Positions 58,220 to 60,631 of a DNA stretch of 64,000 bases are shown in pieces (positions within the stretch are counted from its first letter, which is position 1; every line of letters begins with the position of its first letter). The notes under the pieces are model-generated. The model was not told where the DNA came from, made no database searches, and was given only the letters and a program-made list of their open reading frames with translations. The stretch lies in the NCBI RefSeq assembly GCF_009914755.1, contig NC_060927.1; one strand, given 5' to 3'. Both the position numbers and the translations under genes were made by a program. The stretch comes from the human T2T-CHM13v2.0 reference genome, Homo sapiens.

Positions 58220-59561
58220 GTGGTCTTCCTGCTGTCTCCCCACCAGCTGTCAGGAGAACTGGGGCTTACAGTGGCATGTGGGGCAGTTCTGTGGTCAAGA
58301 AGCCAGAGAGTTCCTGCCCCCTCCTCTCCTGGCTGGAGACTGAACAGCTGGATGGGATGAACTTCTCTAGTTGTCATGTGGGAAGGGCCCTTAGCCTGAT
58401 GCCTTCCAAATGAATGTACAATAGAACTCTTCTGCCAATAGAATCATATGGATAGAGTGAATATTTGTTATTTGGGACTGTTGATCATTTATTCCTTTTT
58501 CCTAGAGAACCTGGCTTACTTCTTAGAAAAACACCTCATGACTCTTTGTGAGGTCTTGGTTGGAAAGATTTTTGGGTGACCACTGCCCACTTTGGAAGTC
58601 CAAGAGGTCATGGCTTCTCTTCCTGCCCCAGAGGCAGGCTCAGCCCACTGAAAGCCTTCTCCCTAGATTCAGTCTTAACAAGAAAGCCAAGGCTAATGGT
58701 CTGGCTGGAAGGCAGCCTGCATGATGGCAGCATGCCCACCTGCTGGGGTTCCCAATCCAGCTTTTCAGAACTCTCTTGGCATTGTTTCCTCCAACCCCAA
58801 GCCTGGCCCTCCAGCATCTTATTTAATCTTTGAATAACTCTCTCTACCTCTACCGTCCTTTTAATTAGTTTCCTTCTCTGGGTAGGGAAGTCTGTTTCTA
58901 CAGCTAGCAACCAGTAATGCTTACTGATACTCACAGAACCCTAATATTTAAAATGGATAAAAATAGAGATACTCTATTGAAATGGGGAAGAGTGAGCAAG
59001 AGCTCCTCCCTTGAATCATACCCCTAACAATAGCCTCCCTGTTATCTCCAGAGTGCCACCAAGGCCTCAAAGAGCTTAATGTGAAACCCTTGGTCTCATC
59101 CCATCCTCTTTGTAGAGGTGAGGAAAGAGAAGCAAGAGAAGTCTGCTGATTTGCCAAGATCTCAGCACTGCTTACTGATGGTGTTCTATTCCCAGAGCCA
59201 CGGCCTTTCTACCACACCATGGTAGCTGCCTTGCCAGAATATGGGAGACAAGGAGATACCACAGTGAAGCTCAGGGGCCATGCAGAGATCAAGGGAATAA
59301 AGTGGTCTCTCCTTTACTTCTCCCAGGTCACTATAAACAGCAACAGCAGGACAGACAGCCTTGGAGGGCTCCTTCATGGCATCAGACCCATTCCCCATCT
59401 CTGCTCTTCCAGTCCTCTGGCCTATGTAGGCATACTGGTACCATGACCCCCTCAGGTCATAATGACAGATACACATCTCAAAGTACTCTGCCAGCATTTC
59501 CCAAGGCATAGCTCCCAGCATCCTGCACCGACAAGATGCTCTGTAAAAAAAAATGAGTCCC

Positions 59562-59612
59562 ATTGCTTCGCAGCTTTTTGGCTAAGATCAAGTGTGACAT
59601 CTGTTCTTATCA
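59562..59612 (+). pseudogene. U2 snRNA pseudogene fragment (nt 1-51; RNU2-type), 5' part of a U2/L1 chimera
   Basis: attgcttcgcagctttttggctaagatcaagtgtgacatctgttcttatca matches U2 nt 1-51 (ATCGCTTCTCGGCCTTTTGGCTAAGATCAAGTGTAGTATCTGTTCTTATCA) at 44/51 without gaps, starting exactly at nt 1. Confidence 0.93.
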
Positions 59613-60380
59613 ATGAGACCAACAAGCATATGAGAAAAAGCTCAATATCACTGATCATTAGAGAAATGCAAATCAAAACCATAATGAGGTACCACCTCAC
59701 ACCGGTAAGAATGGCTACTTTTAAAAAGTCAAAAATAACAGATTGGTGAGCTTATGGAGAAAAGGGAATGCTTATACACTGTTGGTGGGAGTGTCAATTA
59801 CTTCAACCATTGTAGAAAGTAGTGTGGCAATTCCACAAAGACCTAAAAACAGGACTACCATTCAACCCAGTAATCCCTTTGCTGGATATATACCCAAAGG
59901 AATATAAATCACTCCATCATAAAGATATGTGCACGCATATGTTCATGGCAGTACTATTCCCAATAGAAAAGACATGGAATCAACCTAAATGCCCATCAAT
60001 GACAGATTGGATAAAGAAAATGTGGTATATATACACTATGGAATACAATGCAACCATAAAAAGGAATTAGATCGTGACATGGATGGAGCTGGAGGCCATT
60101 ATCCTTAGCAATACTAACGCAGGAACAGAAAACCAAATACTGCATGTTCTCACTTATAAGTGGGAGCAAAATGATGAGAATCAATGAGCACAAAGAGGGG
60201 AACAACAGACACTGGAGCCTACTTGAGGGTGGAGGGTGGGAGGAAGGGGAGAATCAGAAAAAATAACTATTGGCTTAGTACCTGGGTGATGAAATAATCT
60301 GTACATCAAACCTCTGTGACACGAGTTTACCTATATTACAAACCTGCACATGTATACCTGAGCCTAAGATAAAAGTTTTA
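59613..60380 (+). mobile_element. 5'-truncated L1PA (old, L1PA13-16-like): ORF2 C-terminus + 3' UTR
   Basis: Translates to ORF2 C-terminal motifs ([49 protein letters not shown]) broken by frameshifts; 3' UTR 'gggtgatgaaataatctgtac...acaaacctgcacatgta'. Confidence 0.93.
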
Positions 60381-60631
60381 AAAACAACGAGTCCCTTAAT
60401 AAAATCTCTAATTTTCTAGATCCGAAGATGCACTTTCTTCCTTTTTCACGTATTAATAGTAAATGCAAGGTTGTGTCATGAAGTGAATAAAAACAAGTCC
60501 TCTGAAATCTGACTACCTTGGTTTGATTAACAGCTCTGCCACTTACTAGCCATCTGATCTTGGGCAAGGTACTTAACCATTCTGGTCCTCAACTTTCCAT
60601 CTGTAAACTGGAAATGAAATAAAAGATCCAA

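What the first reader, a model, noticed from the sequence alone, without database searches (positions are those of the whole stretch)
59547..60395. U2 snRNA/L1 chimeric retro-element inserted as one unit within a single TSD
Seen in sequence: U2 nt 1-51 (59562-59612) abuts, in the same orientation and with no spacer or polyA, a ~770-bp L1PA 3' end (59613-60380). One 15-bp direct repeat brackets both parts: aaaaaaatgagtccc (59547-59561) and aaaacaacgagtccc (60381-60395). These match at 13/15, and one difference is a CpG-type transition. The left copy follows 'ctgt|aaaa', which resembles an L1-endonuclease T/AAAA site. Established: this is the architecture of snRNA/L1 chimeras, best known for U6/L1, which are explained by template switching during target-primed reverse transcription or by RNA ligation. 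Inference: this is a U2 example made in one event by an old L1PA subfamily. Standard annotation would probably list it as two unrelated items.
Basis: partly seen in the sequence, partly recalled or inferred. Interest (0 to 1): 0.85.

Follow-up and report, generated by a model that had tools for sequence, protein, structure and literature searches.

The report
Already catalogued U2/L1 chimeric retro-insertion
This is a real but dead fossil in which the first 51 bases of U2 spliceosomal RNA were copied into the genome fused to the tail end of an old L1 jumping gene, and this exact human locus is already listed in a published catalogue of such chimeras.

Summary
Window 59562-59612 is U2 snRNA nt 1-51, 44/51 identical to an RNU2 array copy. 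It abuts, with no spacer, a 5'-truncated L1 3' end (59613-60377) that covers the last ~190 ORF2 codons and the 3' UTR. One direct repeat brackets both parts: 59546-59561 and 60380-60395, 14/16 identical, and 0 of 63,128 control positions do as well. It sits at a GT/AAAA site. The junction is blunt and unique in the genome.

The interpretation, one L1-mediated event, is supported but not new. Law & Burns (Cell Genomics 2026, Table S2, sheet U2) list hg38 chr3:72249057-72249109 U2:1-53 plus chr3:72249112-72249879 L1PREC2. Both are on the + strand and flagged as arriving together in a mammalian alignment. Segment lengths match the window to the base.

The L1 family label there is L1PREC2, not L1PA.

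Added here: all 60 truncated U2 retrocopies I examined end at U2 nt 52-63. The break at nt 51 therefore lies at the edge of U2's usual reverse-transcriptase entry zone.

An 8/9 inner repeat flanking U2 alone keeps a two-step origin alive at about 6%.

Template switching (about 0.52) and RNA ligation (about 0.32) cannot be separated from sequence alone. Interest is low.

The parts
59541..59548 (+). Presumed L1 endonuclease nick site: top strand ctgt|aaaa, with the bottom strand nicked between 59544 and 59545.
   Evidence: Read. It meets the 1T/3A criterion used in the published table legend. That the nick fell at the start of the A run is inferred.
59546..59561 (+). Left target-site duplication: an A run followed by TGAGTCCC, ending flush with U2 nt 1.
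   Evidence: 14/16 identical to 60380-60395. 0 of 63,128 control positions do as well.
59562..59612 (+). U2 snRNA nt 1-51 (stem-loop I, the branch-point recognition region and the start of stem IIa), 7 substitutions.
   Evidence: 44/51 identical to the RNU2 array copy. Rfam U2 scores 39.5-42.9 bits.
59613..60377 (+). 5'-truncated L1 3' end: ORF2 from about codon 1085 to its stop near 60185, then the 3' UTR. Degenerate, with many stops and frameshifts.
   Evidence: 39 genomic copies match at 80-84%. ORF2p residues 1154-1236 match at E 1e-34. 35 relatives read ...catac|ATG[C/T]GGCC|AACAAGC at the break. Relatives end in ...AAAAGTT followed by an A run. The codon number and the stop position are inferred.
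60378..60387 (+). TT plus a short A-rich run (AAAAACAA). This is the remnant poly(A) tail and cannot be separated from the A-rich start of the right target-site duplication.
   Evidence: How the run divides between tail and duplication cannot be decided from the sequence.
60380..60395 (+). Right target-site duplication: an A-rich run followed by CGAGTCCC.

Best explanation
One L1 target-primed reverse transcription event, tens of millions of years ago, produced the whole 59562-60387 insert.

1. L1 ORF2p nicked the bottom strand at ctgt|aaaa.
2. It primed on the poly(A) of an L1 RNA of an old primate family (L1PREC2 by the published label).
3. It copied about 765 nt, up to ORF2 codon ~1085.
4. 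The reverse transcriptase then left the L1 RNA and continued on a U2 snRNA. It entered at nt 51, at the edge of stem-loop IIa, and ran off at the RNA's 5' end (nt 1).
5. Second-strand synthesis and repair left a 16-17 nt target-site duplication around the bipartite copy.

The product lacks a U2 promoter, the Sm site and the 3' half of U2. Its ORF2 piece is broken. It is therefore an inert fossil with no expected function.

Shown here: the anatomy, the duplication, the blunt unique junction and the RNA-type 5' end. Shown in print: joint arrival of both parts in the species alignment. Inferred: the template switch itself and the order of steps.

My odds are about 0.9 that it was one event. Within that, about 0.52 for a template switch and about 0.32 for RNA ligation before reverse transcription.
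For: - U2 nt 1-51 at 44/51 identity, starting at nt 1, with flanks unlike the RNU2 gene.
- The L1 3' end directly follows. 35 L1 relatives show that L1 homology starts at 59613. ORF2p match at E 1e-34.
- One outer 14/16 direct repeat, with 0 of 63,128 controls as good.
- No remainder of U2 lies beyond the L1, and the left flank is not L1-like (114 of 200 shuffles score as high).
- The junction 28-mer is unique in the assembly at up to 3 mismatches. Only 1 of 40 scored matches, the locus itself, spans the junction.
- Similar decay of the two parts: the L1 star-tree branch is 0.082 substitutions per site across 30 copies. U2 shows 7/51 = 0.137, 95% CI 0.057-0.263.
- Published table: this locus is flagged as a contemporaneous insertion by alignment of mammalian genomes (method).
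- For a reverse-transcriptase entry rather than ligation: all 60 solitary or chimeric truncated U2 copies I fetched end at U2 nt 52-63. In the published table, 7 of 9 antisense U2/L1 chimeras end at nt 55-63, and those cannot arise by ligation. Reverse transcription starting in this zone of U2 is therefore the common reaction.
Against: - The junction has 0 nt of microhomology and no filler. That is what ligation predicts, whereas the solitary copies typically show complementarity to the target (Doucet 2015, section read).
- The break at nt 51 lies just outside the 52-63 range seen in 60 of 60 other copies.
- For U6/L1, ligation before reverse transcription is the experimentally supported route (Moldovan 2019, passages read).
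- An inner 8/9 repeat flanks U2 alone.
- I could not inspect orthologous loci myself.
Confidence: 0.52

Rival explanations
1. One event, but the two RNAs were joined before reverse transcription. An endonuclease cut U2 after nt 51 and cut the L1 RNA before the ATG of codon ~1085. An RNA ligase such as RtcB joined the U2 5' fragment to the L1 3' fragment. The chimeric RNA then retrotransposed in cis.
For: - The junction is blunt, with no microhomology and no untemplated bases.
- RtcB-dependent ligation is shown for U6/L1. Its authors leave open that 3'-truncated small RNAs could be ligated after cleavage that leaves a 2',3'-cyclic phosphate (Moldovan 2019, passages).
- A discrete U2 5' fragment would also explain why 60 of 60 truncated copies end at nt 52-63.
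Against: - U2 is not known to carry a 2',3'-cyclic phosphate (stated for non-U6 small RNAs).
- The same U2 zone is used in antisense chimeras (7 of 9) and in solitary copies, where ligation to L1 RNA cannot be the cause.
- No U2 5' fragment ending at nt 51 has been shown here.
Confidence: 0.32
2. Two events. A 5'-truncated L1 inserted first, with the 16-17 nt duplication. Later, on the same evolutionary branch, a tailless 3'-truncated U2 retrocopy (the common class) inserted into the last 9-10 nt of the L1's left duplication and made its own short duplication: AATGAGTCC at 59552-59560 and AATGAGACC at 59612-59620.
For: - The inner repeat is 8/9 and sits in register with both ends of the U2 piece.
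- Solitary truncated U2 copies with their own duplications are far commoner than sense chimeras. 30 of the 60 fetched copies show a flanking repeat of 10 nt or more, against 4 sense rows in the published table.
- The A-rich left duplication is itself a good endonuclease site.
Against: - The right copy of the inner repeat is what L1 relatives carry at that place. Column counts in 35 copies are A33, T30, G32, C18/T14/A3, G24/A10, G27/A6, C34, C33.
- Deriving it from the target needs one substitution plus the loss of one C.
- The T in the left copy is a decayed CpG, so the likeness was lower at the time of insertion.
- U2 would end at nt 50-51, outside the 52-63 range of 60 of 60 copies.
- A 9-10 nt duplication is short for the class: 27 of the 30 detected are 13 nt or longer.
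- The nick would fall inside the T run, not at TTTT/A.
- The published alignment flag says both parts arrived together.
Confidence: 0.06
3. The locus is a retrotransposed copy, or the source, of a pre-existing chimeric transcription unit, so the fusion was made elsewhere and propagated.
For: Nothing specific supports it. Chimeric masters are conceivable, and SINEs with snRNA-derived heads exist in other animals (listing only).
Against: - The junction 28-mer occurs once in the assembly at up to 3 mismatches, with 0 in the reversed control.
- Only the locus itself spans the junction among 40 scored matches of 2,155 candidates.
- The other sense U2 5'-fragment/L1 chimera (L115) breaks L1 upstream of the ORF2 start, so it is an independent event.
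Confidence: 0.02

Closest known systems
This very locus in Law & Burns, Cell Genomics 2026 (PMC13174262), Table S2, sheet U2. I read parts 1-2 of the supplement and passages of the main text.
   Same: hg38 chr3:72249057-72249109:+ is U2:1-53 of 188. It is followed after 2 nt by chr3:72249112-72249879:+ L1PREC2 (768 bp). Both flags, proximity and alignment prediction, equal 1. Segment lengths of 53+2+768 map onto window 59562-60384 to the base, at a constant offset of 40,505 from the window's T2T coordinates.
   Different: The U2 sheet has no columns for the target-site duplication or cleavage site, and the main text does not discuss U2 chimeras individually. The terms 'U2 snRNA' and 'L1PREC2' occur 0 times in the main text. 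That hg38 and T2T hold the same locus is inferred from structure and position, not from a liftover.
U6/L1 chimeric pseudogenes. Sources: Doucet 2015 sections 5-8, read; Moldovan 2019, passages; Buzdin 2002/2003 and Garcia-Perez 2007 seen only as references.
   Same: The small RNA lies 5' of a 5'-truncated L1 in sense orientation, with a single target-site duplication and an L1 endonuclease site.
   Different: U6 is full length, with its U tract and a 2',3'-cyclic phosphate end that RtcB can ligate. Here U2 is cut at nt 51 of about 190. Doucet 2015 states that internal initiation has never been seen for U6/L1.
U3/L1 and U5/L1 sense chimeras with 3'-truncated small RNA (Doucet 2015; Law & Burns 2026).
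   Same: A 3'-truncated small RNA starting at or near nt 1 is fused in sense orientation to L1. Doucet 2015 attributes this to internal template switching.
   Different: The RNA is different. U2 examples are rare: 4 sense rows of 13 U2 rows in the table. Doucet 2015 found no sense example among U2 copies of 97.5% identity or more, only one inverted one.
Antisense (twin-priming) U2/L1 chimeras and solitary tailless 3'-truncated U2 retropseudogenes.
   Same: They carry the same U2 segment, nt 1 to about 52-63. This holds for all 60 fetched copies. Five antisense chimeras were re-found in this assembly.
   Different: Those are primed on U2 by a target DNA end. They are inverted relative to L1 or lack L1 altogether, and usually show complementarity at the junction. 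Here U2 is in sense orientation, follows an L1 cDNA, and the junction is blunt.

Membership tests
snRNA/L1 chimeric retro-insertion (sense type) | The small-RNA part is a copy of the mature RNA: it starts at the RNA's 5' end and carries no gene flank. | tested here: met
   The alignment starts at U2 nt 1. The upstream 30 nt are unlike the RNU2 upstream flank.
snRNA/L1 chimeric retro-insertion (sense type) | The small RNA is fused directly, in the same orientation, to a 5'-truncated L1 that runs to the L1 3' end. | tested here: met
   35 L1 relatives place the L1 start at 59613. Relatives' 3' ends place the L1 end at 60377. ORF2p match on the + strand.
snRNA/L1 chimeric retro-insertion (sense type) | A single target-site duplication lies outside both parts, with none between them. 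| tested here: met
   The outer repeat is 14/16, with 0 of 63,128 controls as good. Caveat: an inner 8/9 repeat around U2 alone exists, and L1 homology explains most of it.
snRNA/L1 chimeric retro-insertion (sense type) | An L1 endonuclease-type cleavage site and a poly(A) tail. | tested here: inconclusive
   The site ctgt|aaaa fits T/AAA. The tail is only TT plus AAAAACAA and merges with the duplication.
snRNA/L1 chimeric retro-insertion (sense type) | Both parts are present or absent together in orthologous loci. | not testable with these tools
   No other primate genome is held. The published table flags the locus found_by_msa_prediction = 1.
U6/L1-type chimera (ligation of full-length small RNA) | A full-length small RNA ending in its natural 3' end. 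| tested here: not met
   U2 stops at nt 51 of 191. No further U2 sequence follows.
Twin-priming (inverted) snRNA/L1 chimera | The small RNA lies in opposite orientation to L1. | tested here: not met
   Both parts are on the + strand.
Solitary tailless 3'-truncated U2 retropseudogene | Its own target-site duplication immediately flanks the U2 piece, and the U2 3' end falls in the usual zone. | tested here: inconclusive
   There is an inner 8/9 repeat. However, its right copy matches the L1 family, and the U2 end at nt 51 is outside the 52-63 range of 60 of 60 copies.

The most novel reading that the evidence does not exclude
U2 snRNA offers L1 reverse transcriptase one narrow entry point at stem-loop IIa (nt ~51-63), or exists in cells as a discrete 5' fragment ending there. 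That single substrate would feed three products: solitary tailless U2 retrocopies, inverted twin-primed U2/L1 chimeras, and rare sense chimeras such as this locus. The blunt junction at nt 51 would then be an end-to-end jump onto, or a ligation of, a pre-cut U2 fragment. Doucet 2015 already reports in general terms that snRNA truncations cluster in single-stranded segments, so only the common-substrate claim would be new.
Probability: 0.3. Interest if true: 0.3.

Novelty: already known. Interest (0 to 1): 0.15.

Why it matters
It matters little on its own. The locus is an inert fossil and is already in a curated list of 253 LINE-1 chimeras.

Its small value is as a clean, nucleotide-level example of a sense U2/L1 chimera. 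That class has only four rows in the published table, none annotated there for duplication or cleavage site.

It also shows that L1 reverse transcriptase, or an RNA ligase, can join L1 RNA to an internal point of a Sm-class snRNA, not only to U6.

The census made here sharpens where L1 machinery engages U2: all 60 truncated U2 copies examined end at nt 52-63.

Tried and rejected
1. Pfam scans gave nothing usable. Four stop-free pieces of the window's L1 part gave 0 families for three pieces and one sub-threshold DUF346 match for a 21-aa piece. Nine stop-free pieces upstream in relative L043 gave 0 families. The ORF2p identity came from the PDB sequence search instead.

2. A remainder of U2 beyond the L1, which would mean L1 had inserted into a U2 copy: none at E up to 10. 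The best local alignment is a 10-nt chance match.

3. The left flank as a continuation of L1: local score 11, against a shuffle mean maximum of 11.0, with 114 of 200 shuffles as high.

4. A second copy of the junction: none.

5. A variant U2 gene as source of the three adjacent changes at U2 nt 35-37: none of 30 U2 loci share them.

6. The automatic orientation labels were unreliable, because library locus L058 holds an inverted second L1. I replaced them with direct BLAST for 12 loci and do not use the class counts.

7. My L1 library covers only the last ~2.3 kb of L1, so chimeras with longer L1 parts could not be classified by it. L115 was settled by ORF2p matching.

8. Papers not held: Garcia-Perez 2007 and Buzdin 2003. 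What they say about U2/L1 is known to me only through citations.

9. Doucet 2015's supplementary data with per-locus truncation points is a PDF that cannot be read here.

11. A last script was not run. It was meant to give an empirical null for the inner repeat and to count how like the left flank each relative's 8-mer is. I stopped that step. The report uses the column counts, and no empirical null for the inner repeat is given.

12. No L1 family assignment or dating by a repeat library was possible. The age rests on a star-tree estimate that used only the 29 nearest copies, which biases it low.
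Full report
**What is there.** Reading 59300-60700 shows, on the + strand, this order:
- ctgt, then a run of nine A, then TGAGTCCC (ending at 59561);
- a U2-like stretch from 59562 to 59612;
- L1-like sequence up to ...AAAAGTT (60377);
- TT, AAAAACAA, CGAGTCCC (ending at 60395);
- unrelated flank.

**The U2 part.** A 3-kb Rfam scan finds one hit, U2 (RF00004), at 42.9 bits and E 1.4e-6. 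On 86 nt alone it scores 39.5 bits, E 2.5e-7, with only model positions 1 to about 51 truly matched. Both scores are under the family's gathering score of 46, so the whole window at gathering level gives 0 hits. The assembly holding the window could be searched, which gave the functional RNU2 array. Against one array copy the fragment aligns without gaps to nt 1-51 at 44/51. Six of the 7 differences are transitions and two sit in CpGs. The fragment is nearest to canonical U2 among 30 U2 loci, and none shares its three adjacent changes at nt 35-37. The sequence upstream of nt 1 is unlike the RNU2 gene's upstream flank. The copy therefore came from the RNA, not from gene DNA.

**The L1 part.** The stretch 59613-60379 matches 39 other places in the genome at 80-84% over almost its full length (40 scored of 15,376 first-look candidates). 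The translation of 59816-60067 matches human L1 ORF2p residues 1154-1236 at E 1e-34. In 35 relatives (36 tried, one dropped for a weak anchor) the sequence at the break reads ...gaagacatac|ATG[C/T]GGCC|AACAAGC. The window reads ...ttcttatca|ATGAGACC|AACAAGC. L1 therefore starts at 59613, inside ORF2 codon ~1085. That number is inferred from the residue numbering and the codon phase visible. U2 nt 52 is G and the L1 base before the break is C, so the junction is blunt, with no shared and no extra bases. Relatives end in ...AAAAGTT followed by an A run. The window's tail is reduced to TT plus AAAAACAA and merges into the right repeat.

**The duplication.** The repeat extends to 16 nt at 14/16. 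One difference is T on the left against C in a CpG on the right, consistent with decay of a CpG in the left copy. As a control I kept the left word's register fixed and allowed 21 right registers. Under that control, 0 of 63,128 window positions reach 14/16, and 0 of 266 A-rich left words do. The non-A 8-mer alone at 7/8 occurs at 1.3% of positions. No part of U2 lies beyond the L1. The left flank is not L1-like.

**Is the fusion unique?** A 28-nt pattern across the junction occurs once in the assembly at up to 3 mismatches. Of 40 scored matches to a junction-spanning query, only the locus itself spans the junction. The chimera did not propagate.

**Age.** I used pairwise distances only. A least-squares star tree of the window's L1 part and its 29 best relatives gives the window copy a branch of 0.082 substitutions per site. 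The other copies range from 0.059 to 0.109. The U2 part shows 7/51 = 0.137, 95% CI 0.057-0.263, which is compatible. Choosing the nearest relatives biases the L1 figure low. With neutral rates recalled from memory (roughly 0.15-0.2% per million years), this suggests some tens of millions of years. I could not date it better.

**What is in print.** Doucet et al. 2015 (sections 5, 6 and 8 read) examined only U2 copies of 97.5% identity or more. Of 58 characterised copies, 57 were 3'-truncated and one was associated with a repeat. That one was an inverted U2/L1 explained by twin priming. They describe sense U5/L1 and U3/L1 chimeras with 3'-truncated small RNAs and propose internal template switching for them.

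Law & Burns (preprint 2025, Cell Genomics 2026; sections and supplement parts read) state that U1, U2, U4, U5, U6, U3 and 5S are all known to form LINE-1 chimeras. They give a manually inspected catalogue of 253 cases. Its U2 sheet has 13 rows. One row is chr3:72249112-72249879:+ L1PREC2 with chr3:72249057-72249109:+ U2:1-53, found both by proximity and by alignment prediction. Segment lengths of 53, 2 and 768 nt map onto window 59562-60384 exactly, at a constant offset of 40,505 from the T2T coordinates given by the hub. Because the junction is unique in the genome, I take this to be the same locus. It is an inference from structure, not a liftover. As a cross-check, seven other rows of that sheet have counterparts in my own census on the same chromosomes, with similar U2 ranges. 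For six of them the orientation was confirmed. The seventh, L089, gave only weak L1-library hits. The U2 sheet gives no duplication or cleavage-site columns, and the main text does not discuss U2 cases one by one.

**A census made here.** A 30-nt pattern for U2 nt 22-51 with up to 3 mismatches has 102 matches in the assembly. Of these, 100 are listed:
- 33 belong to near-full-length copies already found by the covariance model;
- one is the window;
- six I dropped as apparent duplicates of fetched loci (same matched 30-mer);
- the remaining 60 I fetched.

All 60 end at U2 nt 52-63. The commonest ends are nt 57 (18 copies), nt 60 (11) and nt 52 (6). One copy has an internal duplication and ends at nt 53. 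Thirty of the 60 show a flanking direct repeat of 10 nt or more under a simple automatic test. In the published table, 9 of 13 U2 segments end at nt 53-63. That is 7 of 9 antisense rows and 2 of 4 sense rows. The binomial P is 4.6e-9 against a uniform break point. The pattern cannot see copies that end before about nt 48.

Five antisense chimeras (L079, L095, L100, L121, L127) and two U2 copies nested inside L1 (L087, L112) were verified by BLAST. The other sense 5'-fragment case (L115, chromosome 20) carries U2 nt 4-60. It is followed by L1 sequence that soon reads the ORF2 N-terminus (residues 2-66, E 1.6e-24). Its L1 break point is therefore different, and it was an independent event.

**Mechanism.** The window's break at nt 51 lies at the edge of the zone where reverse transcription starts on U2 in every other retrocopy examined. 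In solitary and antisense copies the primer is a target DNA end. The simplest reading for the sense chimera is the same reaction with the L1 cDNA end as primer, that is, a template switch. Against that reading:
- the junction is blunt;
- nt 51 is one base outside the observed range;
- ligation is the experimentally supported route for U6/L1, whose authors leave open cleavage plus ligation for 3'-truncated small RNAs.

I put a template switch at about 0.52 and ligation at about 0.32.

The automatic repeat finder reports AATGAGTCC (59552-59560) against AATGAGACC (59612-59620), 8/9, flanking U2 alone. This would fit a tailless U2 copy that landed in the left duplication of an older L1. I rate it at about 0.06, for these reasons:
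- The right copy is what L1 relatives carry at that place (column counts).
- Deriving it from the target needs a substitution and the loss of one C.
- The T that raises the likeness is a decayed CpG, so the two were less alike at insertion.
- U2 would end at nt 50-51, outside the 52-63 range.
- The duplication would be short for the class.
- The nick site would be poor.
- The published alignment flag says both parts arrived together.

An empirical null for this inner repeat was not obtained.

**Verdict.** The L1 label should read L1PREC2 by the published annotation. The locus is already catalogued as a U2/L1 chimera, so novelty is nil and interest is low.

Noticed in passing
window 59596-59598: There are three adjacent substitutions (U2 nt 35-37) inside the branch-point recognition sequence of the U2 fragment. 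None of 30 other U2 loci shares them. The cause is unknown: later mutation, or a copying error at modified bases.
   Followed up: partly
window 59552-59560 and 59612-59620: An inner 8/9 direct repeat flanks the U2 piece alone. Its right copy is also the L1 family's own sequence at that place. It keeps a two-step origin possible.
   Followed up: partly
L070-L129 (60 loci of the window's assembly): Every truncated U2 retrocopy examined ends at U2 nt 52-63, most often at nt 57 (18 copies) or nt 60 (11 copies). Half show clear flanking duplications.
   Followed up: yes
L099 (G000:C21:21637531-21638360): A U2 piece (nt 6-54) lies inverted directly against the 3' end of an L1. The published U2 sheet has no chromosome 21 row. 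It may be a solitary U2 copy that landed at an L1 tail.
   Followed up: no
L103 (G000:C5:66410796-66411625): A truncated U2 copy with an internal tandem duplication of U2 nt 22-37.
   Followed up: partly
L071 and L072 (G000:C1, 120.58 Mb and 145.61 Mb): Two U2 nt 1-57 copies have identical flanking repeats, so they are copies of one insertion within a segmental duplication. Six further matches on C10, C13, C21 and C22 share one variant 30-mer and look like duplicates too.
   Followed up: no
L114 (G000:C11:125677998-125678827): A U2 nt 1-57 copy is directly preceded by a run of at least 14 A. It may have inserted at the tail of another retroelement.
   Followed up: no
window 60478-60561: A weak C/D-box snoRNA-like match (RF00300) scores 19.2 bits against a gathering score of 44, E 0.09 on a 231-nt stretch. 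I take it as chance. From recall only, the surrounding sequence resembles a MIR element.
   Followed up: no
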